Virus record (IMG/VR): IMGVR_UViG_3300031134_000001
Coordinates: 32,001-96,000 of that record
Length of the DNA stretch: 64,000 nucleotides
Direction: 5' to 3' (one strand)
Source: a virus
Lineage: Duplodnaviria; Caudoviricetes
Part shown: piece after piece, positions 13,641-56,594 of the stretch
Position numbering within the stretch: position 1 is the first letter of the stretch
Layout of the letters: every line of letters starts with the position of its first letter
Program-made: the position numbers and the translations under genes
The notes under the pieces: generated by a model
Told to the model about the DNA's origin: nothing
The model's database searches: none
What the model saw: the letters and a program-made list of their open reading frames with translations, nothing else

Positions 13641-13739
13641 TACTGTAATTAGTTGTCAATATGCAATCTAACGATATAAAAATAGCTGGTATCCACCTGC
13701 TATAGAGCCGAACCACCTCTTAACCAAAAGGAAAACGAA

Positions 13740-32995: not shown

Positions 32996-33004
32996 AAGCG
33001 CCCT

Positions 33005-33295
33005 ATGTCCGTTATCCTCCCAGTCATCAAACTCAAGGCAGATTCGATCGTCATCAAAATGGCAGTAGATGGCCGTGTTGTCACATACACGATGTTTAAT
33101 CCTGATCCCGAAACCATGGAGTGTCTGCGCGCAGCACAACTTGGTGACAAATTCAACGGCGTGATCATCGTTGATAAGCGTGACGATGGTGACGACGACA
33201 CGCACATCAACGAACGCATTCAGACATTCCTTGAACTGCATTTGCCCAGCATCAACAAGCGTCACACCCAAAGGGTGACATTCATCAACGGCTAA
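33005..33295 (+). CDS. Hypothetical protein
   Basis: 96-aa ORF in the early operon. Confidence 0.7.
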   Translation: MSVILPVIKLKADSIVIKMAVDGRVVTYTMFNPDPETMECLRAAQLGDKFNGVIIVDKRDDGDDDTHINERIQTFLELHLPSINKRHTQRVTFING

Positions 33296-33308
33296 GAAAG
33301 GATACAGC

Positions 33309-33542
33309 GTGAGTAACATTCAACCTAAATGGATTATATTCATTGTTCGCGATCAAGACGGATCAATGATTTATAACTCGGGAATCTCCGGCAGTGCGCA
33401 TCAGCGACGTACACGATTGCGCGCCCTTCTTCAGCGCCTTCGCCAAGGGCGCGATATTGTTGTATCTAAAAACGAATGGGTAAAAGGTCGCGGGCAGCGC
33501 ACTACCAAAATGATCTGGAGTAAAGAGCTGCCCGCAATCTAG
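33309..33542 (+). CDS. Hypothetical basic protein
   Basis: GTG start after AAAGGA, 77 aa. Confidence 0.6.
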   Translation: MSNIQPKWIIFIVRDQDGSMIYNSGISGSAHQRRTRLRALLQRLRQGRDIVVSKNEWVKGRGQRTTKMIWSKELPAI

Positions 33543-33562
33543 CCATTAGAAATGTGGCGCTA

Positions 33563-33586
33563 GAAAATCTCAAGGCTATATACCTA
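33563..33586 (+). promoter_or_regulatory. Early promoter variant heading the amphipathic-helix array
   Basis: GAAAATCTCAAGGC-TATATACC (33577-33584); shares CAAGGCTATAT with the copy at 40102. Confidence 0.55.
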
Positions 33587-33653
33587 GTGTGAATTGGAAA
33601 CGGTATCGATTAAACGAACCGTTTCTTACCCTAACTTACACTGGAGAATTACC

Positions 33654-34034
33654 ATGAACTTCATCAAATCGATCTGGAATAAAGTCAAGTCGTTCTTCGG
33701 TGGCATGTTCGCGTCGAAGAAAGTCACCGCAGCACCAGCTGCACCAGCCGTCAAAACCGAAGTGGCTCAAGCTGCTGAAGTCATCAACGCTGAAGAAGTC
33801 CAAGCTGAAGCCGATGCTAAAGCAGAAGCTGATGCTCGTATGGAAGCCCTGGCAATTGTATTCAACCGCGTTGCTGAACTGGCTCGCTTCCGTAACTACT
33901 CGCTTGAAGAAGCGCGTACCGCATTCTACGCTGACGACATGACCACCATGGTTCGTATCGAACGCGACATGAAAGCACGCAAGTACAAAGCACCAAAGAA
34001 AGTCAAAGCAGTTAAGCAAGTTGTTGCAGCATAA
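33654..34034 (+). CDS. Array protein 1, N-terminal amphipathic helix
   Basis: GGAG SD, ATG 33654; starts MNFIKSIWNKVKSFFGGMF and ends VVAA. Confidence 0.85.
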   Translation: MNFIKSIWNKVKSFFGGMFASKKVTAAPAAPAVKTEVAQAAEVINAEEVQAEADAKAEADARMEALAIVFNRVAELARFRNYSLEEARTAFYADDMTTMVRIERDMKARKYKAPKKVKAVKQVVAA

Positions 34035-34075
34035 TTCGTTCGTTCCCTATAACTAACAACACAAGGAGCATTACC

Positions 34076-34501
34076 ATGAAACAATTCTTCAACAACATCT
34101 GGTCGAATGTCAAAGACCTGTATGTCAAAGTGCGCAACTTCATCGCACGTCAGATCACGCCTTGCCTGCAATACGGCGACAAGCTGATCAACACCGTCAA
34201 AGCGCTTCGCACGCTTGGCAAAGAAGTGTCGTACATGGACTACGCTAAAGTGGTCCTGGGTTACACCGTGAACATCCTCACGTGCGTGACCTTCGGCGTC
34301 ATCCTGGCTGTGCTCGGTGCGTACGCTACGCTGGCACTGTCGTTCGTGGTTGGCGAATTTATCGCAACCGTGTTCGTGATCGTTGCCCGTACGCTGTTCG
34401 TCATGGACGTGTTCGAAGAAGTTGAAAGCCAGATGTTCTGCGCTAAGATTTCTGAAATTGCTGTCGCAGTGCGTGAACGCCGTGAAGCCGCGGCAGCTTA
34501 A
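34076..34501 (+). CDS. Array protein 2, amphipathic helix plus membrane segments
   Basis: Starts MKQFFNNIWSNVKDLY; hydrophobic stretch of about two TM segments; ends AAAA. Confidence 0.85.
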   Translation: MKQFFNNIWSNVKDLYVKVRNFIARQITPCLQYGDKLINTVKALRTLGKEVSYMDYAKVVLGYTVNILTCVTFGVILAVLGAYATLALSFVVGEFIATVFVIVARTLFVMDVFEEVESQMFCAKISEIAVAVRERREAAAA

Positions 34502-34527
34502 TTCATAACCAACAACAAGGATCTATC

Positions 34528-34992
34528 ATGAACTTCCTGCGCAACCTCTGGACCCGTATCAAATCGTTTTTCAGCAACCTGTTCGGCGGCAAGAAAGTCG
34601 AAGCTGAAGTCAAGGCTGAACCAGCTCCACTGACACCGGCTGCTAAGCGCTTCAACGCCGCTTACGAGAAAGCTGAGCAAATCGCTTTCAACCCTAAGTG
34701 GAGCAACGGCACTGGTTACTTCAACCATGCTGTTGAAGGTGAGCACGCACCAAAACTGGCTGTTGGTCAAATTGTTGCAAGCAAAGTCCCTGCCGCTGAC
34801 AACCGTCGTCTGATCATCGTCGGTACTGCAACTGGCAACGCCGTAATGTTTGAGCGTTACACCGACAGCGCTCAAACACTCGCAAGCAATGTGCCAGATG
34901 AGCTGCGCTCGTTCATCAGCAACCGCCTGTCGGCTGACGATGTAACGTTCCTGCTCAACGCTGGTAACGTACCAGTTAAAGCTGCAGCGTAA
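34528..34992 (+). CDS. Array protein 3, amphipathic helix plus globular domain
   Basis: Starts MNFLRNLWTRIKSFFSNLF; has RRLIIVGTATGNAVMFERY; ends KAAA. Confidence 0.85.
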   Translation: MNFLRNLWTRIKSFFSNLFGGKKVEAEVKAEPAPLTPAAKRFNAAYEKAEQIAFNPKWSNGTGYFNHAVEGEHAPKLAVGQIVASKVPAADNRRLIIVGTATGNAVMFERYTDSAQTLASNVPDELRSFISNRLSADDVTFLLNAGNVPVKAAA

Positions 34993-34997
34993 TACCG

Positions 34998-35023
34998 AAG
35001 AGGGGGATCGCCCCCTCTTTTAT
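34998..35023 (+). terminator. Intrinsic terminator
   Basis: AAGAGGGGG-ATCG-CCCCCTCTT hairpin. Confidence 0.65.
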
Positions 35024-35047
35024 AAACAACAATAACTAGGAGTTGTC

Positions 35048-35425
35048 ATGAATTTTCTGAAGAAATGTTTCAACCGCGTTGTCGGCTGGATGGCTTATCC
35101 GTTGGCCAAGTCGATGGACAAGATGGCGCAGCTCTTCGCGCCAGCACTGGTCGACCTGAAGTCGGACCGTAGTGTGAAGTGGACGTGGAAAGCTGTGGGT
35201 CAAGTGGTGATGGGCTTCTTGCTCTTGATCCTTACGTCTGTCGCGCTCTGCGTAACCTTTGTCGGCTCCATCGCCGGCATCACGTTGCTGCTTGCTCTGG
35301 TCCTGCCATCGCTCTTGGCTAACGTGATCGCCATCCTCGGCACGTTGTACATCGGTCACTGCGTGTACGAAGTCACCGAACCAATGCGTGCTGACGAAAT
35401 CGCTGTTGATTTCGAACTTAACTAA
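35048..35425 (+). CDS. Array protein 4, membrane protein
   Basis: Starts MNFLKKCFNRVVGWM; long hydrophobic region. Confidence 0.85.
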   Translation: MNFLKKCFNRVVGWMAYPLAKSMDKMAQLFAPALVDLKSDRSVKWTWKAVGQVVMGFLLLILTSVALCVTFVGSIAGITLLLALVLPSLLANVIAILGTLYIGHCVYEVTEPMRADEIAVDFELN

Positions 35426-35460
35426 TCCAATACCTGTTGTACCTTTAAAGGAGCATTACC

Positions 35461-35841
35461 ATGGAACGTATCAAAAACTTCTTCGTCGGCGTCGCCAAGT
35501 TCGCCTACGACTTCTTCATCCACCCAATCGTCAACCTGCGTCACCTGACGAAGATGGACAACACAACCAAAGCCCTCAGCATCATCGAAGCGGCTTCCCG
35601 TGTCATCGTCATGGCATCGTGGGTCGTCGCTGTGCCAGCCCTGCTGGTTACCCTGGCATGGACGTGGATCATCGGTACGCTGATCTGGGTCGCTGCAACC
35701 GTCGCTTTCATGATGGGTTCGATGGTTGCTATCGGCAAAATGGCTGGCGAATTTGATGCCGCTACTCCAGCTGCTGAAGTCAAAGCCGCCGACGCTGCTG
35801 AACCAGCAACTGAATCGACCATCATCCTCGCTACGGCCTAA
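35461..35841 (+). CDS. Array protein 5, membrane protein
   Basis: Starts MERIKNFFVGVAKFAYDFF; two TM-like segments; ends LATA. Confidence 0.85.
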   Translation: MERIKNFFVGVAKFAYDFFIHPIVNLRHLTKMDNTTKALSIIEAASRVIVMASWVVAVPALLVTLAWTWIIGTLIWVAATVAFMMGSMVAIGKMAGEFDAATPAAEVKAADAAEPATESTIILATA

Positions 35842-35844
35842 GCC

Positions 35845-36141
35845 ATGTGGGATTTTATCAAACGCCTCTTTAAATCCATCTACCGTCGTACGGTAGGTGG
35901 GTTGGTGCGGTTGGTAAAACACGCGGCGCAGGGTAAAGTGGATGGTCATGACAAAGTCGTGGTGTCGCGTTTCTTGCGACAGAGCGCGTACTTTGTGGTG
36001 CTGTTCTTCTTCCCAGCCCTGGGTGGTTTGCTTATGGCTTTGCGTATCATGGCGTTGGGTGATGTCTTTGGCATCATTAGCGACGTGTACGAAGATGTCG
36101 TTACCGCGTATTTAAAACAACCCGCACCTGCCCCCGCCTGA
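35845..36141 (+). CDS. Array protein 6, membrane-associated
   Basis: Starts MWDFIKRLFKSIY; hydrophobic AYFVVLFFFPALGGLLMAL; ends PAPA. Confidence 0.8.
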   Translation: MWDFIKRLFKSIYRRTVGGLVRLVKHAAQGKVDGHDKVVVSRFLRQSAYFVVLFFFPALGGLLMALRIMALGDVFGIISDVYEDVVTAYLKQPAPAPA

Positions 36142-36180
36142 TTCAGGTGGTGGGTAGATGCCCACCATTTGGAGAACAAC

Positions 36181-36480
36181 ATGCGTAAATTGCTCGCATT
36201 TGTAAAAGGCTTTTTCTTCACAGCGAAAGTCATTGTGTCGGCGATTGTGGCGCCAGTCGCGCAGCTGCTGAAAAGCACGTTGCAAAATAAGCCGTTGTCG
36301 GTCTTCCAGTTAGCGTTTGCTATCTGGCGTTTGTTCGTATGGACGATCTTCGTTCTGTGCGTTACGTCATCGGTGGGCGTCCCTGCCATCATCGCTTACC
36401 TGTTCTTAATCGACGTCATGGTCGTTTGCGTGCAGGTCGTGGCAATCACTGTCCTTAACTTGAAGGAGAAAGCAGTATGA
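36181..36480 (+). CDS. Array protein 7, membrane protein
   Basis: GGAG SD, ATG 36181; starts MRKLLAFVKGFFF; two or three hydrophobic segments. Confidence 0.8.
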   Translation: MRKLLAFVKGFFFTAKVIVSAIVAPVAQLLKSTLQNKPLSVFQLAFAIWRLFVWTIFVLCVTSSVGVPAIIAYLFLIDVMVVCVQVVAITVLNLKEKAV

Positions 36481-36845
36481 AAAAGTTTCTCGACACCTTA
36501 GCGGTGTTTGTTGGTAACCTGCTGGACTTGAACCCCAAGTCGTGGCTGGAATCCCAACGCCAAGCGCAGAAGATGCGCGAAGCAGCGCGTGCATGGGAAG
36601 CTGTCCCAGCGCCTTCGATCGTTCACAAAGACGGTCAAGAAGAAGTCGCCGCAGCGCCTGAGTCGCCATTTAGCTACCTGGGTCGCACCGCCCTGGTCGC
36701 GCTTGGCTTTGTTGGTCTGGCGTGGGTCGTAACCCAAGTGGTTACCGCGTTCATCTACGTCCTGCCTATCTTGGCAGGTCTGGCAACGCTGGCTTTGTTG
36801 ATGACCATGTTTGGTCCCAAGAAGCCTGACCCAATCCCAGCATGA
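36477..36845 (+). CDS. Array protein 8, C-terminal helical hairpin membrane protein
   Basis: Starts MKKFLDTLAVFVGNLL; two TM-like segments near the C-terminus; ends PIPA. Confidence 0.85.
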   Translation: MKKFLDTLAVFVGNLLDLNPKSWLESQRQAQKMREAARAWEAVPAPSIVHKDGQEEVAAAPESPFSYLGRTALVALGFVGLAWVVTQVVTAFIYVLPILAGLATLALLMTMFGPKKPDPIPA

Positions 36846-36907
36846 ACACCGCAGTAAAATCCATTTCATTTTCTAATCGCAGCAAAATCAAACATCGGAG
36901 ATCTACC

Positions 36908-37609
36908 ATGAAAAACGCACAACAAGCCCAACACGTCGCTAACGCCATCAAAACCGTCCGCGCCCAAATCGAAGCACTGCGCGAGCAGATCAAGTCGGCC
37001 ACCGGCGACGAACGCATCGCGCTGCAAGCCGAAGCCAACGCGCTGCTCGAATCGATCGGCGTGGAATCGTCGGTCGGTGTGCAGTCGGCCGACAACAGCA
37101 CCGCTGGTCACATCCTGGGTAACATCAACGCCGTTGTCGAGAAAGCTGGCAACATCACTGGCTTGCCAATCGAACCAGCTGAAATCGATGTGAAGATCAC
37201 CAACGCCGACGGCAGCAGCACCACCACCCACACCACGGTCGAGACCAAGAAAGCTGGCCTGTGGACCCGCTTCAAACTCTGGTGCGCAGAGAACAAGAAG
37301 AAAGTGATCTTCGGTGCTATCGGCCTGGCCGCCGGCGCTGCTGGTCTGTGGTTCTGGATCAATGGTAAAAATACTGTGAACGTTACATCCTCTGCAACGG
37401 ATGTGATCATCACTGCCGAACCTACCATCCAAACCGGCGAGGCTGACCCTTCGATCTTCGAACGTGTCGGTGCCTGGGTTGTCGGTGCTGCTGGCGCCGT
37501 CAAAGGCTATGCGGTCAACGCCTGGTCGTGGGTGAAGGGTCTGTTCAACCGTAACAACAACACGGAGGTCAACGTTGAAGTCCCAGTCCAAATGCCACTC
37601 GCTGCCTAA
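36908..37609 (+). CDS. Array protein 9, coiled coil plus TM plus amphipathic helices
   Basis: GGAG SD, ATG 36908; GLWTRFKLW, TM VIFGAIGLAAGAAGLWFWI, WSWVKGLF; ends PLAA. Confidence 0.85.
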   Translation: MKNAQQAQHVANAIKTVRAQIEALREQIKSATGDERIALQAEANALLESIGVESSVGVQSADNSTAGHILGNINAVVEKAGNITGLPIEPAEIDVKITNADGSSTTTHTTVETKKAGLWTRFKLWCAENKKKVIFGAIGLAAGAAGLWFWINGKNTVNVTSSATDVIITAEPTIQTGEADPSIFERVGAWVVGAAGAVKGYAVNAWSWVKGLFNRNNNTEVNVEVPVQMPLAA

Positions 37610-37706
37610 TGGCCGGCACTACCCTTCCGGTAAACAAGCACTTGTCTCGTTGGTGTTGGCCTTCGTGATCTTTGTGATCGCCAACATTTCCACCGGTCGG
37701 TTCTAA
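37575..37706 (+). CDS. Small overlapping 43-aa tail-anchored membrane peptide (not in the ORF track)
   Basis: GGAGG at 37564-37568, 6 nt before TTG 37575; encodes MKSQSKCHSLPNGRHYPSGKQALVSLVLAFVIFVIANISTGRF. Confidence 0.5.
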   Translation: MKSQSKCHSLPNGRHYPSGKQALVSLVLAFVIFVIANISTGRF

Positions 37707-37789
37707 AAGCATACACTCATGAGGAGCTCGGGGTAACCCGGCTCCTTGTGGGCGTATGTTGTTTCTTTTTTCTTTACAGGAGTTGCCTT

Positions 37790-38071
37790 ATGGTCGCTGC
37801 CCTCGTTGCAAGCCTGCTGTTGTTAGTGACAGCGGTTCGTCGTAAAGCTGCTGAGCCGGTCCAACCGATCGCCGCTAAGCCCGTACCTAAACCCAAGCCA
37901 GTAGCTATGCCAGTGATGCCACGTGCTGCGCGTACTGCGCCACCAGCGCTTAAGCGTGATCGTCGTCCAACGTTGAGTGTGGATGAATACCAGCAGCAGT
38001 ACGCCACCCCAGTATCATTCAAGGTGGAGCTTACGGGCTACAACTTACCTCCTGGAACACTGACTTACTAG
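37790..38071 (+). CDS. N-terminally anchored Pro-rich small protein
   Basis: AGGAG SD, ATG 37790; MVAALVASLLLLVTAV followed by RRK. Confidence 0.7.
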   Translation: MVAALVASLLLLVTAVRRKAAEPVQPIAAKPVPKPKPVAMPVMPRAARTAPPALKRDRRPTLSVDEYQQQYATPVSFKVELTGYNLPPGTLTY

Positions 38072-38144
38072 AAAAATATTGTAAGTCAGCAATACCATGT
38101 CCGACAATTTACCTATAACTCCATACCAACAGAAGGGATTCATC

Positions 38145-38942
38145 ATGAAACTTTTTTCGACCATGTCGCCAGCTGAGCAACAAGCAATCCAACGTTTTTA
38201 CAATGGTTTCCAGAACGCGCCGACCACCATCGCGTTTCGTAGCCAGTTCATCGAGCGTAAAGCCGATGGCAGCGTCGGGTTCATGCCAATCATCAGTGAC
38301 CCCGTCAAGCGGATCGTGATGAAGGAAGGTGATACGGCGCGCATGCACAATGTGCACCCGATCGAGACCAAACAACACCTCAACAGTCTTTTCCTGTTGA
38401 TCGGCACGCCTTACGGCACGCTCGTGGTGTACGGTCGTGAAAACGAGTACAAGATCAATGGCAAAAATGTGGTCCTCGGCCCGTTGCCACAGCTGCACCA
38501 CACGGCGCGCTTCTTAGGCGCTGCCCTGCGGTTCTTCGCTCGCACCAAGCGTGGCAAGACCACCACGGCGGAACTGGTGACCTGGATCTTCTCGGACAAC
38601 TTCGAACGTGACATGGAAGAGCAAGCGCAGCTCGACCACGTCACCGAACAAAAGACCGGCAACACCAATCTGCTGGGCGACGGCATGCCACCCCGTATTC
38701 GTCAGCAACACCCAACGCAGAAGAAAGCCTATGATGTGAGCAAACGGCGTGGACCTATCCAGCCTGTTGCCGACTTCCAAAACCCGAAGGAAGTCCAACC
38801 ACATCCGCTGGATATCATCCCGTGCCGTGCCAATGGTTTCAAAGGCACGCGCTACGCTAACCAGACGCCAGAACAGCGCGCTGAAGGCGCTGCGATGGTG
38901 GTACAGCCTGGCGTTCTTTCGGGTGTGCATCCAGCGGTGTAA
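38145..38942 (+). CDS. Hypothetical protein, possibly sharing a domain with 34528-34992
   Basis: ATG 38145; LFLLIGTPYGTLVVYGR resembles LIIVGTATGNAVMFER. Confidence 0.75.
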   Translation: MKLFSTMSPAEQQAIQRFYNGFQNAPTTIAFRSQFIERKADGSVGFMPIISDPVKRIVMKEGDTARMHNVHPIETKQHLNSLFLLIGTPYGTLVVYGRENEYKINGKNVVLGPLPQLHHTARFLGAALRFFARTKRGKTTTAELVTWIFSDNFERDMEEQAQLDHVTEQKTGNTNLLGDGMPPRIRQQHPTQKKAYDVSKRRGPIQPVADFQNPKEVQPHPLDIIPCRANGFKGTRYANQTPEQRAEGAAMVVQPGVLSGVHPAV

Positions 38943-38961
38943 CATCCACTAAGGAGTTATC

Positions 38962-39210
38962 ATGGCCAATCCACAGAAGCAAGCTCAGTTCAAAGCACGT
39001 CAAGATGTGTTGCGTGACGAAGTCAATCTGTTTCTTTCGCAAAACAAGCGCGAAGTCGCCATTCGACATTACCAAGACAAATGCGCTTGCACTCTCGATC
39101 GCGCTGTTCAGTACGTCGAATCGGTGGAACGGGAACGTCGCGCTGTGCGTCATGAAGACTTCTTAACGCGGGTTCGCACTCGTAGTTGGTATGGCCATGC
39201 AATTGCTTAA
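38962..39210 (+). CDS. Small protein with a ribosomal L7/L12 C-terminal-like helical motif
   Basis: AAGGAG SD; KREVAIRHYQDKCACTLDRAVQYVES resembles KIxAIKxYRExTGxxLxEAKxxVE. Confidence 0.45.
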   Translation: MANPQKQAQFKARQDVLRDEVNLFLSQNKREVAIRHYQDKCACTLDRAVQYVESVERERRAVRHEDFLTRVRTRSWYGHAIA

Positions 39211-39256
39211 ACGGCATAAGCCCGCTACCCTTCGGGGTAGCGGGTTGTATGACGTC
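39211..39256. terminator. Bidirectional UUCG terminator
   Basis: ACGGCATA-A-GCCCGCTACCC-TTCG-GGGTAGCGGGT-TG-TATGACGTC at a convergent junction. Confidence 0.8.
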
Positions 39257-39269
39257 TCTTTTTTTTTGG

Positions 39270-40082
39270 CTATCGACCAATACCGCTGATCAACGAGATG
39301 TATCGGGTCATGGATTCCGGGTCATTCATGAACGCGACCTTGGCCCAGGTTTCATCCAGGTATTCCCGGTACATCATTTCTGCATCGGAATAACCTTCGA
39401 CGATTTCCTTGAACTTACCGACTTGCACACCACCACGCAGTTCACCCATGTCGAGCTGGATGATGTACGAGTTGTAGATGAAGGACTTGACAGCCAACTC
39501 CACTAGGCGGGCAAAGGCCAGGTAGCTGCGGGCTTGGATGTTTGACAAGTTCTCATCGTTCTCCAGCGAGCAGCGTAAGTACATGTTCTGCGGTAAAATC
39601 ATGGCGTCTTGCACCATCACCACGTTCTCACCGATTAACTCCACACGCGCAGTACCGATGTTACCAGTGCGCAGTTGTGCTTCCATGACTTGGGATGCCA
39701 TGGACAACGCAGGACTACCACGCCCTGTGCCGTAGTTGCCACCATAGCCACTTTGTAGATTGGCCAGATAACCGTACGTGACATCGAACACGCTCAAGAT
39801 CGCGCGGCCGTTGGTCTTTGTTTTGGGAATCTGAAAGACGGTGACGTAACCGTTCTCAACTGTTTCTCGGGGAACGTCACTTAAGTCAATCCGCGTTTCC
39901 ACGCCATTGACCAAGTTACAGTCCACCAACACACGCGGTGCGAGCACCATGAAACGAATGCGTTCTTTGATGTCAGAAGGCAGATCGCGAAACTGTTGAT
40001 ACGGTTCTTGGAACACCACCTTCAGAATCTCGCGCGGAATGCGGAACATCACTTCATCCAGCGCTTTGGTAATGGGATTCAT
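39270..40082 (-). CDS. Conserved virion structural protein (phiKZ gp32-like)
   Basis: N-terminus MNPITKALDEVMFRIPREIL typical of this family; 270 aa. Confidence 0.6.
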   Translation of the reverse strand: MNPITKALDEVMFRIPREILKVVFQEPYQQFRDLPSDIKERIRFMVLAPRVLVDCNLVNGVETRIDLSDVPRETVENGYVTVFQIPKTKTNGRAILSVFDVTYGYLANLQSGYGGNYGTGRGSPALSMASQVMEAQLRTGNIGTARVELIGENVVMVQDAMILPQNMYLRCSLENDENLSNIQARSYLAFARLVELAVKSFIYNSYIIQLDMGELRGGVQVGKFKEIVEGYSDAEMMYREYLDETWAKVAFMNDPESMTRYISLISGIGR

Positions 40083-40093
40083 CTTGGCTCCTA

Positions 40094-40117
40094 AATAATT
40101 ACAAGGCTATATTACTA
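40094..40117 (+). promoter_or_regulatory. Early promoter
   Basis: AATAATTACAAGGC-TATATTAC-T (core 40108-40115), an exact phiKZ-type core. Confidence 0.75.
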
Positions 40118-40177
40118 CTCTGAGATGCGTAGCACATAGCATTCATCCTTTACAACCAACAACTACTAGGAGTATTC

Positions 40178-43144
40178 ATGAATCAATCGCGTAAGCCCCT
40201 TGTGCATCTTCTTTTCGTCGGCATCAAAACACCAGAATGGTGCAACGATTCTGAGAGCGGCATCAGTAAACTGCTCCATCTCATGAAATCGGAAGGCTCG
40301 GCCATCATCGCGCTCGGTGACGAAGAGATGACCGCCGTGGGTAACAACGCCGCTTTCTTGGCACTGAAACAGAAGGTTGAAGAATTGCGCTCGAAAGGCT
40401 ATAAAGCAGATCGCTGGGTGGTTGTTTCGAATAGTAACAACTTCAGGTTTATTGGCGACATGGATGGTCGCCCCATCGATTTCATTTACACGCACATTCA
40501 CCCTGGTGAAAATACGTATTTGTACGAAGATGATGAGCGGTCGCAGTATGGCAAACCACGGGCGCTGAATAACGTTTTAATGGCCATGCGTCAACAAAAC
40601 AAGCAAGCCGAGAAAAACAAACTATCGGGCCTTCTGCCAACGCTGTTGATCAAAAAACTGCTGGTCAGCATGGTGTACCATCTCAACGCTACGCCACCCG
40701 ATCGAAACAATGAGCGCGAGTTGCGCGAAATCATCGACTTTACTGAACGCCAGCTGACGCTTGGTAAGTTGTTCCCTAAGCCCGACCCTATTAACAACCA
40801 ACAACCACAAGGAACCACCATGGACAAAAACCATATCGTGCAACTGCTCAAGCTGACATGCCAGATGCTGAAGCCAGAAGAAGCGAATTCGTCGACGATC
40901 GACGGAGAAGTTGTGTGTCGTGACCTGACGTGGGTTAAAGAAAATGCAGAGACGACGCTGAAGGATATCGTACCACGGGCCACTCCGATCGTCATCGGTG
41001 AAACTCTGGTGGCACTGCAAACCATCGTCCCTCCGCACCCTCTGTATGCGGCAAAACTCACTGATGATCTCAAGCGTGTGATCAATGCGATGAAAGAGCC
41101 AGAAGCTGAAGCTAGCTCGCAGCCAGCGGATGATCAGAAAGCGCCGGTCGTTCACGTCGCGCCAATGGGTAAGCGTAAGCAAGTTGTCGAAACTTTGGCA
41201 CGCGCTATCGGCGCCATCGAAAACGGCGCCGACCTGAACGAGACCGAGAAGAAAGATCTGGTGGACGACCTCGCGTTTATCCATCGCAACTTCGACACGA
41301 TCATTCCCGAGCCCAAAGCACCGACACACCACAAGAACGTCAACCTGATTCTCGACGGCTTGAGCGATCAGAATTGGGGCAAAGATATCCAGGCGTTGTT
41401 CGACGAAATGAACAAACGTGGCGGGCGTACTTTCCAGTTCAACCAGTACGGTTTCGACACGAATCAGGACATTGCTTTCGCTGCTGAACTGGGTGACTAC
41501 CTCAAGGTTGTGCATCCCGACTCGACCTGGGTCGTCATCAAGGTTAACCCTGACGCGAAAAAGGAAGCCACGCTGGGTGATAAACCAAGCACCGTGATGA
41601 TGCAGCATTTCAAAAGCAAGGTGCTGGATCACAACGTCGCCTACTTGACCTTCACGGCGGGTATTAAATTTAGCACCATTAAGTCGTCCCTCTATCAGGT
41701 GCTGGAAAAGCATTTGCGCCGTATCGCTGGCGCGAACCAGACTGAAGAGAAAGCGCCAGAGTCCGCCACGCCAATGGCAGATGAAATCCTGAAAGCGCTA
41801 CGCAACCTGGACGTGATGCGTGAAGCGTTGATGCCTTTGTTGCCAAAGCCGTCTTCCGAACCATCGGAACTGCAAGAGTATTTGCAGGGTTGGCTGCGTG
41901 ATTTTAATGGCATGCCTCCAGGCCCTGGTGCGAACTTCCAGCGGTTTGGCCGTCTTCCACAAGGCTATGCCGATGACTGGCGCTTCAATGTCAATGGTCA
42001 TCCAGATCAACAAGGCTATGGTCCAGTCGGTGGTTGGCCAATGTCGCAACCACCTTCGTATGGACCAGGTCGCGATCCATCGCAAGAAGCTTGGCGTACA
42101 TCACGGGCACCATTCATGGATTACGCCCGTCGTCCGCAGGGTGGTTCTTTCACGGAAGAAGTGTTGAAATCATTTAAGGGTGTGGTCGCAGTGCACGTGT
42201 ATGGCACATCCGGTGAGATTGCTTTGAAGCGCTTTATGAATATTTTCCATCAAGCGCTTCCACATGCGATGCTGACTGTTGTTCAGCATCAAGACCGGCA
42301 AGAGATCTCGTTGTTGGATTTCATACAGGAAGAGGAAGCGAAAGCAAGGTTATCGACTGGTCGTAAGAGTATTTTCCATGCCACTTTTTTCCTCGCACAA
42401 AGTGATGTTGCTGCGCACCGACACCTGCAAGAATTTAAGTATCAGATGGCTATGCATCATATTCCCTGCCCATGCATCGGTGCGCATGTTGTTAACGCGC
42501 ATGCGTTGTTGAATGCGAGCGATTTTGGTTCGCAATTACTTCAGTTTATCCAAAACCCACAAAGCAACGCTGGTGTCAATAGCGATGTAAGCCATCTGTC
42601 GCCTCAGGGTCGTGACAACGTCGAAGCGATGAAGCATACTCTGGAGCGCAACGGGCTGGGACGCTATGCATCGCAACCACGCCTGTTCGACGCCTTCAAT
42701 CAGTTCGAGGGGGTGTTGGCCATTCATGCCGTCGGCAAGCACAATGCGCACCACATGCGTGCAGCGAACCTTGCCATCCAGATGTTGATTCCAAACGCAC
42801 ACGTGGAAGTGTTTGCGTATTCGCTCGACGATAACGATGGTGTCAACACGTGCGGGAAGCTGATGAAGAATGTGTCGAAACTGAAGCAGCATCAACTTCA
42901 CGTCGTGGTATCGGCGGCGCAACCAATGCCGCCTTTGCCAGCACCAGGTGTGTCAAGCAACTTGGGCTATATGCTGTATTCCGCATTGTCGACGACTTTC
43001 CGTCCGAGTAAAGGGGCCGTGACGATGTTGGCTGAAGGTGCAATCACCGGCATCACGGTGCAAGCGCTGCAAGAAGTATTTGTCAGCGTACTCTTCGGGC
43101 TCTTGGAATCGGAAGCGCTTCCTCAGCCGACGCGGCGTTTCTAA
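40178..43144 (+). CDS. Large modular early protein of unknown function
   Basis: 988 aa; AGGAG SD; internal in-frame SD and ATG at 40820; duplicated alpha/beta unit near the C-terminus. Confidence 0.85.
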   Translation: MNQSRKPLVHLLFVGIKTPEWCNDSESGISKLLHLMKSEGSAIIALGDEEMTAVGNNAAFLALKQKVEELRSKGYKADRWVVVSNSNNFRFIGDMDGRPIDFIYTHIHPGENTYLYEDDERSQYGKPRALNNVLMAMRQQNKQAEKNKLSGLLPTLLIKKLLVSMVYHLNATPPDRNNERELREIIDFTERQLTLGKLFPKPDPINNQQPQGTTMDKNHIVQLLKLTCQMLKPEEANSSTIDGEVVCRDLTWVKENAETTLKDIVPRATPIVIGETLVALQTIVPPHPLYAAKLTDDLKRVINAMKEPEAEASSQPADDQKAPVVHVAPMGKRKQVVETLARAIGAIENGADLNETEKKDLVDDLAFIHRNFDTIIPEPKAPTHHKNVNLILDGLSDQNWGKDIQALFDEMNKRGGRTFQFNQYGFDTNQDIAFAAELGDYLKVVHPDSTWVVIKVNPDAKKEATLGDKPSTVMMQHFKSKVLDHNVAYLTFTAGIKFSTIKSSLYQVLEKHLRRIAGANQTEEKAPESATPMADEILKALRNLDVMREALMPLLPKPSSEPSELQEYLQGWLRDFNGMPPGPGANFQRFGRLPQGYADDWRFNVNGHPDQQGYGPVGGWPMSQPPSYGPGRDPSQEAWRTSRAPFMDYARRPQGGSFTEEVLKSFKGVVAVHVYGTSGEIALKRFMNIFHQALPHAMLTVVQHQDRQEISLLDFIQEEEAKARLSTGRKSIFHATFFLAQSDVAAHRHLQEFKYQMAMHHIPCPCIGAHVVNAHALLNASDFGSQLLQFIQNPQSNAGVNSDVSHLSPQGRDNVEAMKHTLERNGLGRYASQPRLFDAFNQFEGVLAIHAVGKHNAHHMRAANLAIQMLIPNAHVEVFAYSLDDNDGVNTCGKLMKNVSKLKQHQLHVVVSAAQPMPPLPAPGVSSNLGYMLYSALSTTFRPSKGAVTMLAEGAITGITVQALQEVFVSVLFGLLESEALPQPTRRF

Positions 43145-54572: not shown

Positions 54573-56594
54573 ATGAAGACCGGTAGCCAAAATACTCCGA
54601 ACGCAAACAGCGCTCAAGGCTCCACGCAAATGGGTGAAGCATTCGCTCAAGCGGCCCCGCAACAAAACCAAGCCAACTACCAGACCCAGCCACCAGCAGC
54701 AGCACCAGTCGGCGGCGCACCACGTGCCGGCGGCATCAGCGCACTGTTCAGCCGTGGTCGTATCGGCGGCACGCCACAAAACGGCGGCCGTGATGTCGCG
54801 GAACTGACCAAGAAGCTCCAGGACTACTACGACAGCCAGAAGACCACCGAACTGAACGGCGTGAACATCCGCATCGTGCCGGCCACCCGTGGCTCGATCA
54901 TCGGCGCCGCTGACAACCTCAGCAACGCCATCGGCCTGATCATGTTCGTCGTCGAAGGTTCGGACAACCGTGCAGCATTCCACACGCTGCTGATCGCTTC
55001 GGACATGTCGCCATCGGCGCCTACCCGTACCAACGACATGTACCAGTTCGCGCAAGAACAGGTCGTCGCACCACGCACCACCGCCACCCTGGCCGATGAT
55101 GCGCTGAACAAAGTCGTGCATCTGCGCGTCGGTCAGCTGATGCCACAAGCAAAGCTGTTCTCGGCCGACTGGTCGACGGTGCCAACCAACTTCAAGATCA
55201 ACGATCCGGTCGCTATCGCAACGCTGTTCCTGAACGCGCTGCGCGCATGCTGGACCGAACTGGAAGTCAAGACCCCTGGCTTCAAGTACGACAGCCTGTC
55301 GATGGTCGCCGGCGACGGCATCCTGGTCAACTCGGTGCACTTCAACCAAGACCAGGTCAACCCACCAGTCGAAGCATTCGATCCAGCCGGCCTGCCGATT
55401 CGCGGCGAAGTCGTTGCAGCGTTCCGTTCGGAACAACCGCGTATCGTCAACCAGCGTGACCAGACCGAAAACACGGCCGGCATCATGGACCTGGGCACCA
55501 CCCTGGCCTCGATCAGCCTGAACATCGATCCGGTGCCAGCGCGTGCCAACCGCTACATGCCGCAACAAGCGCAAGCTGATGCGACGCAGGAATACAGCGC
55601 TGAAGTGACCATCACCGGTTTCGACATGCGTCTGCCGCCAGACCTGGGCAACGTGCTGCTGCAACTGTCGACCATCCTGGCTGTGCTGAACTCGCAAGAA
55701 CGTCCATGGCTGCGCAACTTCCTGCCACGCCACCTGCAAATGAACGGCGCGAGCCCAACCCGCAACGACAACTTCCGTCCGCGCGACCTGGGCGCCCTGA
55801 ACTACGACTACGGCCTGAAAACCCAACGTCCAGATGGTTCGGGTGTCATGGAAGTTCTGCCATTCCCAACGGCGAACCAGAACGACTTCGGCATCGACAA
55901 CTACTACCTGCTGGTCAACGCCATCATCCAGTCGGCACCAGCGCTGTCGATCGACTGCCCGCTGGCCGGCGCCGAGACCTGGTATCTGCGCATCTTCGCT
56001 GAAGCTAGCGATGTGCCAGAAGCGTTCAACGCCATCGTCAACGCAATGGATTCCATCACGGACAACCGCTTCAGCCAGATCTTCTTCGCGGCCAATTCGA
56101 GCCGTCAGATCGTCCTGAACCGCGCCGAGCGTATCCTGAACGGTTACTTCACCGATTCGGACGGTCGCATTCACGACCTGCGCGTTGCGCAAGACCTGCT
56201 GTACCTGATGAACGCCAAAGGCCACGAAGACCCAGAAATCGGTCGTAAGTACGCCGCAACGTTCAACGGCAGCAGCGATGCACAACTGGCGGCCCGTGCC
56301 AAGCTGATCGAATCGGCTGTGCACAACGTGACCTACACCGGTATCTCGATCCACAAGACCTTCCACCCAGACTTCCTGCGTGCGATGGACGAATCGATCA
56401 CTGCTACCGGCCTGCGTCCACGTATCGACATCGCCCAGCAAGACAACCGCATGCAAATGCGTACGCCATACGGCCTGGCGTCGGCCGGCGCCCTGAACAC
56501 GGGCTTCGTTTCGACGATGTTCCAACAGGGTCCAGCCTACGGCAACAACGCTGCGTCGGGTTACCGCGGCATGGCGCACACGCGCACGTACTAA
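54573..56594 (+). CDS. chmA: Chimallin, major nuclear shell protein
   Basis: 673 aa; Q/P/A-rich N-tail then GGISALFSR, like the 201phi2-1 gp105 N-terminus; early promoter; extreme codon bias; directly upstream of the gp55-like RNAP subunit. Confidence 0.9.
   Translation: MKTGSQNTPNANSAQGSTQMGEAFAQAAPQQNQANYQTQPPAAAPVGGAPRAGGISALFSRGRIGGTPQNGGRDVAELTKKLQDYYDSQKTTELNGVNIRIVPATRGSIIGAADNLSNAIGLIMFVVEGSDNRAAFHTLLIASDMSPSAPTRTNDMYQFAQEQVVAPRTTATLADDALNKVVHLRVGQLMPQAKLFSADWSTVPTNFKINDPVAIATLFLNALRACWTELEVKTPGFKYDSLSMVAGDGILVNSVHFNQDQVNPPVEAFDPAGLPIRGEVVAAFRSEQPRIVNQRDQTENTAGIMDLGTTLASISLNIDPVPARANRYMPQQAQADATQEYSAEVTITGFDMRLPPDLGNVLLQLSTILAVLNSQERPWLRNFLPRHLQMNGASPTRNDNFRPRDLGALNYDYGLKTQRPDGSGVMEVLPFPTANQNDFGIDNYYLLVNAIIQSAPALSIDCPLAGAETWYLRIFAEASDVPEAFNAIVNAMDSITDNRFSQIFFAANSSRQIVLNRAERILNGYFTDSDGRIHDLRVAQDLLYLMNAKGHEDPEIGRKYAATFNGSSDAQLAARAKLIESAVHNVTYTGISIHKTFHPDFLRAMDESITATGLRPRIDIAQQDNRMQMRTPYGLASAGALNTGFVSTMFQQGPAYGNNAASGYRGMAHTRTY

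What the first reader, a model, noticed from the sequence alone, without database searches (positions are those of the whole stretch)
33654..37609. Early array of nine small genes, eight starting with an amphipathic helix
The N-termini are MNFIKSIWNKVKSFF, MKQFFNNIWSNVKDLY, MNFLRNLWTRIKSFF, MNFLKKCFNRVVGWM, MERIKNFFVGVAKF, MWDFIKRLFKSIY, MRKLLAFVKGFF and MKKFLDTLAVFV. The ninth gene has internal GLWTRFKLW and WSWVKGLF. The downstream bodies look unrelated, and seven have TM-like segments. A shared membrane-targeting helix appears to be grafted onto varied cargo behind one early-type promoter. The hypothesis is a membrane-remodelling module for the early infection vesicle or nucleus transition, superinfection exclusion, or countering membrane-based defences. 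I know of no description of such a module.
Basis: partly seen in the sequence, partly recalled or inferred. Interest (0 to 1): 0.8.

Follow-up and report, generated by a model that had tools for sequence, protein, structure and literature searches.

The report
Early phage operon with membrane-anchor helices
A nucleus-forming jumbo phage carries a conserved operon of nine small genes, six of which begin with the same amphipathic helix (close to the MinD membrane anchor and to tape-measure repeats); most also have membrane hairpins and alanine tails, so they look like an undescribed set of short-lived early membrane proteins of unknown function.

Summary
The nine co-directional genes are real. 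They lie in a complete 271-kb Chimalliviridae genome from a phyllosphere metagenome. Syntenic arrays occur in at least four metagenomic relatives, with gene gain, loss and reordering.

Leave-one-family-out profiles support a shared N-terminal motif for six genes (g1-g6). Support is weak for g7 and absent for g8. g9 has two conserved internal copies. The motif is two 11-residue amphipathic units rich in Trp, Phe and Lys. Its core KVKSFFG differs at one residue from KIKSFFG in the proven B. subtilis MinD membrane anchor. A profile of the module also finds tape-measure repeat units.

The "grafted" reading holds for g1 and g3: helix, disordered linker, soluble domain, and g3-body homologues that lack the helix. 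It does not hold for g2 and g4, which are full-length paralogues.

The array sits behind a promoter of the class that also precedes chimallin. Vibrio phage vB_pir03, a distant chimallivirus, has an analogous array behind the same promoter class.

Seven of nine proteins end in Ala and four end in Ala-Ala, a ClpXP-type degron. Another first-reader note on this same stretch had seen this too.

The biological role (EPI vesicle, exclusion, counter-defence) is untested. No paper or family library I searched describes the module.

The parts
33552..33590 (+). Promoter of the chimallin class (core CTATATACC at 33576-33584), probably read by the virion RNA polymerase
   Evidence: PWM built from 12 CTATATCAC sites scores 27.3 here. 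All genome hits at this level lie upstream of + strand genes, chimallin among them. The element is nearly invariant in L002, L003 and L059 although synonymous sites are saturated.
33597..33625 (+). Conserved 5'-UTR hairpin between promoter and g1
   Evidence: The stem GAAACGG/CCGTTTC is kept in L002 and L059 with a different loop. Function unknown.
33654..34034 (+). g1, 126 aa: N-terminal helix module, Ala/Pro/Glu-rich linker, about 55-aa helical domain, ends VVAA
   Evidence: The helix is nearly invariant among homologues that are 43-68% identical overall, and the linker is hypervariable. Residues 8-18 are the best PF05017 hit in the genome.
34076..34501 (+). g2, 141 aa: duplicated helix motif, transmembrane hairpin, ends AAAA
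   Evidence: Full-length paralogue of g4 and of the extra member in L002.
34528..34992 (+). g3, 154 aa: helix module, disordered linker, soluble domain of unknown fold, ends KAAA
   Evidence: AlphaFold: helix 3-19, residues 20-29 with pLDDT below 50 and no secondary structure from 20 to 36, body 37-146 with pLDDT 74-90. Helix-less homologues P0005-P0007, AgentSmith gp39 and FLC1-1B gp107. No fold match.
35002..35026 (+). GC hairpin followed by TTTTATAA, terminator- or attenuator-like, between g3 and g4
   Evidence: Kept with compensatory stem changes upstream of the g4 orthologue in L002.
35048..35425 (+). g4, 125 aa: helix motif, transmembrane hairpin, acidic tail
   Evidence: AlphaFold on nine paralogues gives three helices, 2-38, 47-83 and 88-124, mean pLDDT 70.
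35461..35841 (+). g5, 126 aa: helix motif, transmembrane hairpin, Ala/Glu/Pro tail ending ATA
   Evidence: Helix 16/17 identical to the L002 orthologue against 45% for the rest of the protein.
35845..36141 (+). g6, 98 aa: helix motif (highest hydrophobic moment in the genome), transmembrane hairpin, ends PAPAPA
   Evidence: left-out E = 6e-5.
36181..36480 (+). g7, 99 aa: cationic hydrophobic N-terminus plus transmembrane segments; weak motif member
   Evidence: rank 2, E about 1. Discrimination factor D = 1.68.
36477..36845 (+). g8, 122 aa: uncharged amphipathic N-terminus, C-terminal transmembrane hairpin, ends PIPA; not a motif member by sequence
36908..37609 (+). g9, 233 aa (frame open from 36842): N-terminal long helix, Thr-rich linker, motif copy next to one transmembrane segment, second motif copy near the C-terminus, ends PLAA
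   Evidence: The C-terminal motif resembles an 84-aa protein in the vB_pir03 array.

Best explanation
The array is one conserved, probably early transcription unit of a lineage of nucleus-forming jumbo phages. It encodes small proteins that act at the cytoplasmic face of a membrane.

Six of them (seven if weak g7 is counted) start with a portable module of about 22 residues: two 11-residue amphipathic units with hydrophobic positions F3/I4/I7/W8/V11/F14/F15/M18/F19 flanked by Lys/Arg. I read this as an in-plane membrane-binding helix.

In g1 and g3 the helix tethers a soluble domain to the membrane through a flexible Ala/Pro/Glu linker. In g2, g4, g5 and g6 it precedes a transmembrane hairpin, so both ends would face the cytoplasm. 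g9 places a motif copy beside its transmembrane segment.

The Ala or Ala-Ala C-termini most likely make the proteins short-lived substrates of host ClpXP or FtsH, which would give a pulse of activity early in infection.

Shown here: genes, motif, conservation, modularity, promoter class, helix chemistry. Inferred: membrane binding, early timing, proteolytic turnover. The target process is unknown.
For: - Motif: it is confined to this array in the genome and recovered by leave-one-out among gene N-termini.
- Selection acts on the protein. Helix dN/dS is 0.22 against 0.32 for the rest, with similar dS of 1.05 and 1.27. In the g1 family the helix is nearly invariant while the linker is hypervariable.
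- Chemistry: hydrophobic moment 0.55-0.69 in seven of the eight N-termini (g7 0.38). Discrimination factor D is above 1.34 for g1, g3, g4, g6 and g7. There are 4-5 aromatics per 18 residues.
- Known anchors: the core KVKSFFG compares with KIKSFFG of the B. subtilis MinD anchor, which alone takes GFP to the membrane (PMC13537761). N-terminal helices of this kind anchor SepF and MinE (PMC8178401, PMC5473585).
- A profile of the 40-residue module finds it on other cargo (P0014), after a transmembrane segment (P0019), in tape-measure repeat units (P0013, P0017, P0022) and in acidic repeat proteins. g1 shares 11 of 21 residues with a P0017 unit.
- Structure: g3 is helix, disordered linker, folded body. 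g4 is a long helix plus a hairpin.
- Promoter: the class is shared with the chimallin gene, which is followed by an RNA polymerase subunit gene. vB_pir03 shows the same arrangement. Long conserved motifs of this kind are the virion-polymerase early promoters of phiKZ-like phages (PMC5312081).
- RNA: contigs of a phyllosphere metatranscriptome lie only on 33602-37649 and beyond 40134 within the 33000-40200 stretch laid.
- C-termini: Ala ends 7 of 9 array proteins against 32 of 288 others (p = 1e-5). With tail composition allowed for, p = 3e-4. The feature is kept in L002 (6/10), L064 (7/10) and L063 (4/5). Ala-Ala-COO- is the key ClpXP determinant (PMC7652416).
Against: - No experiment shows membrane binding, timing or turnover.
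- The near-invariance of polar helix residues (N9, K10, K12) is more than lipid binding usually demands and could mean a protein partner.
- g8 and g7 fit poorly.
- The promoter class is called early only by analogy. The RNA contigs are thin (about 3x), come from relatives and could be DNA carry-over.
- The motif was not found in phiKZ or FLC9. A coarse search also found nothing in SA002 and RAY. The module is therefore dispensable for the family's core biology.
- Ala-rich tails partly reflect local composition.
- The host is unknown, so its proteases are assumed.
Confidence: 0.5

Rival explanations
1. The shared N-terminus is a docking peptide for one common protein partner, of the host or the phage, and not a lipid anchor. 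The array would be a set of adaptors that bring different cargo to that partner.
For: Polar as well as hydrophobic helix positions are nearly invariant across g1 homologues that are 43-68% identical overall. First-reader notes on the same genome report other arrays with shared terminal peptides (unchecked).
Against: The helix is strongly amphipathic, cationic and aromatic. It resembles a proven lipid anchor. Most carriers are themselves membrane proteins. The same motif occurs in unrelated bacterial repeat proteins and tape measures, which argues for a generic physical property.
Confidence: 0.15
2. The array is simply a tandemly duplicated, fast-diverging family of small membrane proteins. The N-terminal likeness is residual homology without a shared targeting role.
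For: g2, g4 and the extra L002 member are full-length paralogues, and g1 and g3 share 40 residues. Copy number and gene order change between lineages. Jumbo phages often carry paralogue arrays (scan notes; unchecked).
Against: The helix is under stronger constraint than the bodies. The g3 body exists without the helix in other phages. The module sits on an unrelated coiled-coil cargo in P0014. g5-g9 show no body homology to each other.
Confidence: 0.15
3. The proteins are membrane-active lysis, lysis-timing or superinfection-exclusion factors (holin-, antiholin- or Imm-like).
For: They are small proteins with transmembrane hairpins. There are faint PHROG holin hits for g2 and g9 (E about 0.02). 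In vB_pir03 the analogous array follows a gene with a weak cell-wall-hydrolase hit (E = 0.009, below the Pfam cut-off).
Against: The promoter class is shared with chimallin, not with structural genes. No endolysin lies nearby in this window. Nine to ten members, two of them soluble, is unlike any known lysis cassette. The holin hits are not significant.
Confidence: 0.1
4. The proteins are virion-borne ejection proteins derived from tape-measure repeats. They would be delivered with the DNA to breach or shape the membrane at entry.
For: Sequence likeness to tape-measure repeat units.
Against: The promoter class is that of chimallin, not that expected for virion genes. The proteins are small, carry degron-like tails, and sit in a non-structural block. 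Only two repeat units are present.
Confidence: 0.05

Closest known systems
[quoted passage not shown]
   Same: A short cationic, aromatic amphipathic helix. The core K-[IV]-K-S-F-F-G is shared with g1 and g3 (6 of 8 residues identical in NKVKSFFG against AKIKSFFG). In MinD this peptide alone takes GFP to the membrane.
   Different: Here it is N-terminal, about twice as long (two 11-mers), and sits on small phage proteins rather than a ParA-type ATPase. Common descent is not shown; the likeness may be convergent.
Pfam TMP repeat PF05017 (11-residue WXXh units of phage tape measure proteins)
   Same: 11-residue periodicity and the pattern W-x-x-[IV]-K-x-F-F. The module profile hits tape measures at E 1e-6 to 8e-4. 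g1 residues 8-18 are the genome's best PF05017 match. Ten of the 16 records found with a short tblastn query are annotated as tape measure proteins.
   Different: The score is 12.8 bits, below the 15-bit cut-off. Only two units are present, at the N-terminus of small non-structural proteins.
N-terminal membrane-targeting helices of SepF, MinE and MreB
   Same: An N-terminal amphipathic helix tethers a soluble domain to the cytoplasmic face of the membrane through a flexible linker (PMC8178401, PMC5473585).
   Different: No sequence relation was tested. Those are single cell-division proteins, not a co-expressed phage array.
Tandem arrays of small early paralogues in jumbo phages (for example phrog_4148 arrays; scan notes)
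   Same: Head-to-tail small genes in non-structural, probably early regions, with fast turnover of copies.
   Different: Those are soluble helical bundles of a single family. Here what is shared is a terminal module on membrane and soluble bodies.
ssrA-type C-terminal degron (Ala-Ala-COO-; PMC7652416)
   Same: g1, g2, g3 and g9 end in Ala-Ala, kept in orthologues while the preceding residues vary.
   Different: The tails are genome-encoded, not added by tmRNA. The upstream SspB/ClpX-enhancing residues are absent, and degradation is untested.

Membership tests
Pfam PF05017 TMP repeat | Score at or above the curated 15-bit cut-off | tested here: not met
   Best hit is g1 residues 8-18 at 12.8 bits, E = 0.14. 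No PF05017 hit in the hmmscan of the nine proteins.
Pfam PF05017 TMP repeat | Many tandem units inside a long tail tape measure protein | tested here: not met
   Two units at the N-terminus of proteins of 98-154 aa. No PhageMin_Tail domain was found anywhere in the genome.
MinD-type membrane-targeting sequence | A short amphipathic helix sufficient for membrane binding | not testable with these tools
   Chemistry and core sequence agree. Binding needs GFP-fusion or liposome assays.
MinD-type membrane-targeting sequence | Located at the C-terminus of a MinD/ParA ATPase | tested here: not met
   The helix is N-terminal and no ATPase domain is present.
Holins | Match to a holin family, next to an endolysin, late expression | tested here: not met
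   Only faint PHROG hits at E about 0.02. No lysin in the flanks. The promoter is of the chimallin class.
ClpXP C-terminal Ala-Ala degron | Free C-terminal Ala-Ala | tested here: met
   Four of nine proteins (g1, g2, g3, g9) against 8 of 288 others, conserved in relatives.
ClpXP C-terminal Ala-Ala degron | ClpXP-dependent degradation | not testable with these tools
   Needs half-life measurements in clpX+ and clpX- hosts.
Early (virion-polymerase) transcription unit of Chimalliviridae | Long conserved promoter motif shared with known early genes | tested here: met
   PWM score 27.3. The same class precedes the chimallin gene, which is followed by an RNA polymerase subunit gene. It is conserved in relatives, and vB_pir03 shows the same arrangement.
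Early (virion-polymerase) transcription unit of Chimalliviridae | Transcripts present in the first minutes of infection | not testable with these tools
   Only metatranscriptome contigs confined to 33602-37649, with no time information.

The most novel reading that the evidence does not exclude
A clade of nucleus-forming phages has turned a tape-measure-type amphipathic 11-mer repeat into a portable N-terminal membrane address. It uses this address, together with built-in Ala-Ala degrons, to deliver a transient set of early proteins to the membrane that encloses the injected genome (the EPI vesicle). There the proteins would help open or remodel the vesicle during hand-over of the DNA to the chimallin shell.
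Probability: 0.1. Interest if true: 0.85.

Novelty: new variant of a known kind. Interest (0 to 1): 0.55.

Why it matters
Reviews of nucleus-forming phages name no phage-encoded membrane proteins made early in infection. They state that the channels and factors acting at the early infection vesicle are unidentified (PMC12908238; PMC13282480).

A conserved operon of the chimallin promoter class, encoding seven proteins with predicted transmembrane segments and two soluble proteins with a predicted membrane anchor, gives concrete candidates to test. One carrier, Vibrio phage vB_pir03, is cultured.

The module also shows how a short membrane-binding peptide can be shared among unrelated cargo inside a virus. 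It links tape-measure repeats to MinD-like anchors. The helix could serve as a compact membrane tag.

If the array only encodes accessory host-interaction proteins, it is still a clean example of a lineage-specific multigene family with a defined terminal address and degron.

Tried and rejected
- Pfam and PHROGs on all nine proteins: nothing significant.
- megablast of the region, and tblastn of g1 and g9 against 50,697 phage records: no match.
- Foldseek of the g3 model against PDB and AlphaFold clusters, and a PDB sequence profile: only one unnamed helix-less homologue. The ESM Atlas gave nothing usable.
- Leave-one-out profiles against the full six-frame translation did not recover the left-out members. 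Significance holds only when the search space is gene N-termini.
- The genome search with the 20-residue profile found nothing in phiKZ, FLC9, SA002 or RAY, but its first-look filter is coarse. Local scans of all called N-termini in phiKZ and FLC9 also found no member.
- Around the g3-body homologue of Ralstonia phage FLC1-1B there is no such array.
- Nucleotide-level conservation (a translation-start or RNA element) is rejected as the cause of the N-terminal likeness, because synonymous divergence in the helix codons is near saturation, like the rest.
- Classical signal peptide: rejected, because there is no hydrophobic core.
- Flanking genes gave no functional clue.
- No complex prediction was run, because no binding pair is claimed.


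Full report
**Setting**

The window is bases 32001-96000 of a complete 271,026-bp virus record with direct terminal repeats.
- It encodes chimallin (54573-56594, phrog_4795), PhuZ, split multisubunit RNA polymerases, a phiKZ-type tail sheath and a terminase. It is therefore a member of the Chimalliviridae.
- The nearest cultured phages are distant: Burkholderia phage FLC9 at 42% and Ralstonia phages at 40% identity in the tail sheath.
- The DNA was assembled from a phyllosphere metagenome. Near-identical or related sequence occurs in straw, food, dairy and wastewater metagenomes. The host is unknown.

**The genes**

Nine + strand ORFs lie at 33654-37609 with good ribosome-binding sites.
- A home-made codon-usage gene caller (297 genes in the genome) picks the same nine. 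It starts g9 at 36908, as do the orthologues.
- Kyte-Doolittle windows give hydrophobic hairpins in g2, g4, g5, g6, g7 and g8, one segment in g9, and none in g1 and g3.
- No Pfam or PHROG family matches.

**Is the shared N-terminus more than chance?**
- The eight N-termini have higher hydrophobic moments than the other 288 genes (p = 5e-7). They have 4-5 aromatic residues in the first 18, against a mean of 1.5.
- A profile of the motif has no other hit in the genome above about 11 bits, but its training members match by construction.
- In leave-one-family-out tests against the whole six-frame translation, the omitted members were not significant.
- Against the first 30 residues of all called genes, each omitted family among g1-g6 was the best untrained hit. 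This held with two lineages (E 0.006-0.044) and with five lineages (E 6e-5 to 0.18).
- g7 was second at E about 1, and g8 was never found.
- The recurrent next-best gene lies outside the window (genome 23649-24173, N-terminus MFKLWQRVKG). It has the same promoter class.
- So six proteins share a sequence motif. g7 and g8 share only a hydrophobic or amphipathic character.
- The two internal copies in g9 are its most conserved parts in three lineages.

**Anatomy of the module**

In g1 and g3 the hydrophobic residues repeat with a period of 11 (F3/F14, I4/F15, I7/M18, W8/F19). The module is therefore two 11-mers followed by Lys-Lys.
- With the Fauchere-Pliska scale the 18-residue moments are 0.55-0.69 for seven of the eight N-termini.
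- The HeliQuest-type factor D exceeds 1.34 for g1, g3, g4, g6 and g7. The thresholds are quoted from memory.
- AlphaFold2 on seven g3 homologues gives a helix at 3-19, no secondary structure from 20 to 36 (pLDDT below 50 for 20-29), and a folded body at 37-146 with pLDDT 74-90.
- AlphaFold2 on nine g2/g4 paralogues gives a long N-terminal helix (2-38) and a helical hairpin (47-83 and 88-124) at pLDDT about 70.

**Modularity and paralogy**
- Homologues of the g3 body in metagenomes (P0005-P0007), in Bacillus phage AgentSmith, in Ralstonia phage FLC1-1B and others start directly with the body. In this lineage, therefore, the helix and linker were added.
- In the g1 family the first 22 residues are nearly invariant among proteins that are 43-68% identical. 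The linker varies in both length and sequence.
- Profile-profile comparison shows that g1 and g3 share only their first 40 residues (97.7%). g2 is a full-length paralogue of the extra L002 member (95%) and of g4 (76%). The other pairs align, if at all, only N-terminus to N-terminus.

**Conservation**

Syntenic arrays exist in L003/L004 (about 84% identity), L002 (about 66%, ten genes), L059/L060 (order g1-g3-extra-g2-g4), L063, and L064, a 272-kb contig with ten genes. All lie next to the DUF7484 gene wherever the contig reaches that far.
- Against L002, dS is about 1.05 in the helix codons and 1.27 elsewhere.
- dN/dS is 0.22 in the helix and 0.32 elsewhere. Selection therefore acts on the peptide, not on the DNA.

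**Relatives of the module elsewhere**

A profile of the 40-residue g1/g3 module was searched against 1.84 billion proteins and gave 16 hits at E up to 0.001:
- further g1 and g3 homologues;
- the module on a different coiled-coil cargo (P0014);
- the motif after a transmembrane segment (P0019);
- tape measure proteins with tandem units of the same pattern (P0013 with Pfam TMP repeat; P0022 with PhageMin_Tail; P0017);
- acidic repeat proteins with FFxxLFGSKK units.

Further links to tape measures and to MinD:
- g1 shares 11 of 21 residues with one P0017 unit.
- The best PF05017 match in the whole genome is g1 residues 8-18, but it is below the cut-off.
- A 25-residue tblastn query found 16 phage records at individually non-significant E-values. 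Ten of them are annotated as tape measure proteins.
- The core KVKSFFG differs by one residue from KIKSFFG in the B. subtilis MinD anchor KGMMAKIKSFFG. That peptide alone attaches GFP to the membrane (PMC13537761).

**A second lineage**

Vibrio phage vB_pir03 encodes a chimallin. It has, at about 147.5-150 kb, an array of small genes.
- One starts MQFLRNLWKAIKSFF, 45% identical to g3 over 40 residues.
- One carries NFFRDLWTKFIGLF.
- An 84-aa protein repeats the motif three times and matches the g9 C-terminal motif.
- A transmembrane member ends in WAAA.

With a profile not trained on vB_pir03, that N-terminus is the best six-frame hit in its genome.

**Transcription**

A 39-nt motif (CTAnAA, TTTCA, then CTATATCACTA) occurs about 18 times, always upstream of + strand genes.
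- One site precedes chimallin, which is followed by an RNA polymerase subunit gene. One site lies at 33552-33590.
- The element and the 5'-UTR hairpin after it are almost invariant in relatives.
- vB_pir03 has about 30 sites of TTTCA-N11-TCTCTATAT[TA]AC. Two precede chimallin and one precedes its array.
- Long conserved motifs of this kind are the virion-polymerase early promoters of phiKZ-like phages (PMC5312081). The non-virion polymerase is made of early gene products (PMC12931631).
- The genome's 27 copies of 'hairpin plus TATGCCGT' fit the phiKZ terminator motif ending TTATKYYGT (PMC10914365). None lies inside the array.
- A conserved hairpin plus TTTTATAA follows g3.
- In a phyllosphere metatranscriptome, short contigs 90-98% identical lie only on 33602-37649 and beyond 40134 (after the next promoter) within the 33000-40200 stretch laid. 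This is suggestive, but thin and without timing.

**C-termini**

I noticed the Ala endings before reading the other first-reader note on them (e1-5335866).
- Seven of nine proteins end in Ala and four in Ala-Ala, against 32 and 8 of 288 other genes.
- With the Ala content of the tails allowed for, p is about 3e-4.
- The feature holds in L002, L064 and L063 while the preceding residues change.
- Ala-Ala-COO- is the main ClpXP determinant of the ssrA tag and of related natural degrons (PMC7652416).
- With a cytoplasmic N-terminus and a hairpin, these tails would face the cytoplasm.

**Reading**

The best-supported account is a conserved, probably early operon of membrane-associated small proteins that share a portable amphipathic anchor and often a degron-like tail. 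What they do at the membrane is open. None of the searched reviews or primary papers on the early infection vesicle names phage-encoded membrane proteins. The module is lineage-specific: it was not found in phiKZ or FLC9. It is therefore an accessory, not a core, function.

Noticed in passing
window + strand 13600, 26327, 29801; - strand 15331, 26287, 28053, 39218, 51749 (27 copies genome-wide): A GC-rich hairpin followed by TATGCCGT. It fits the conserved phiKZ intrinsic-terminator motif ending TTATKYYGT (PMC10914365), so this terminator type is shared with a very distant chimallivirus.
   Followed up: partly
window sites ending at 13644, 29853, 33590, 40121, 54490 and 63204: A 39-nt promoter class (CTAnAA, TTTCA, then CTATATCACTA), about 18 copies in the genome, all on the + strand upstream of genes and including chimallin. 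Vibrio phage vB_pir03 has about 30 sites with the related core CTATAT[TA]AC.
   Followed up: partly
outside the window, genome 23649-24173 (window -8351..-7827): A 174-aa gene starting MFKLWQRVKG is repeatedly the next-best hit of the helix profile (E 0.04-0.12 among 297 N-termini). It has the same promoter class, so it may be a further helix-bearing early protein.
   Followed up: no
window 33597-33625: A conserved hairpin in the 5'-UTR of the array. The stem is kept and the loop varies in L002 and L059.
   Followed up: no
L006 and vB_pir03 genome 147702-149993, 259255, 260824: Six vB_pir03 proteins share a second N-terminal peptide, MKT[KL]L, placed ahead of the amphipathic motif. This is another shared terminal module.
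   Followed up: no
outside the window, genome 11066-11128 (- strand): Two adjacent weak TMP-repeat (PF05017) hits in a 461-aa open frame (18.2 bits together). This may belong to the phage's own tape measure or another virion protein.
   Followed up: no
window 37790-38071, 38145-38942, 38962-39210: Three further + strand genes follow the array without a promoter of their own and before the convergent terminator at 39218. The first has an N-terminal transmembrane segment. The metatranscriptome contigs did not cover 38061-39988.
   Followed up: partly
P0015, P0016, P0018, P0020 (profile hits, not in the window): Long acidic, disordered proteins carry 3-10 copies of FFxxLFG[SG]KK or SIWQKIKQF units. 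One is fused to an HlyD-type efflux adaptor. This may be a widespread, undescribed multivalent membrane-binding repeat.
   Followed up: no
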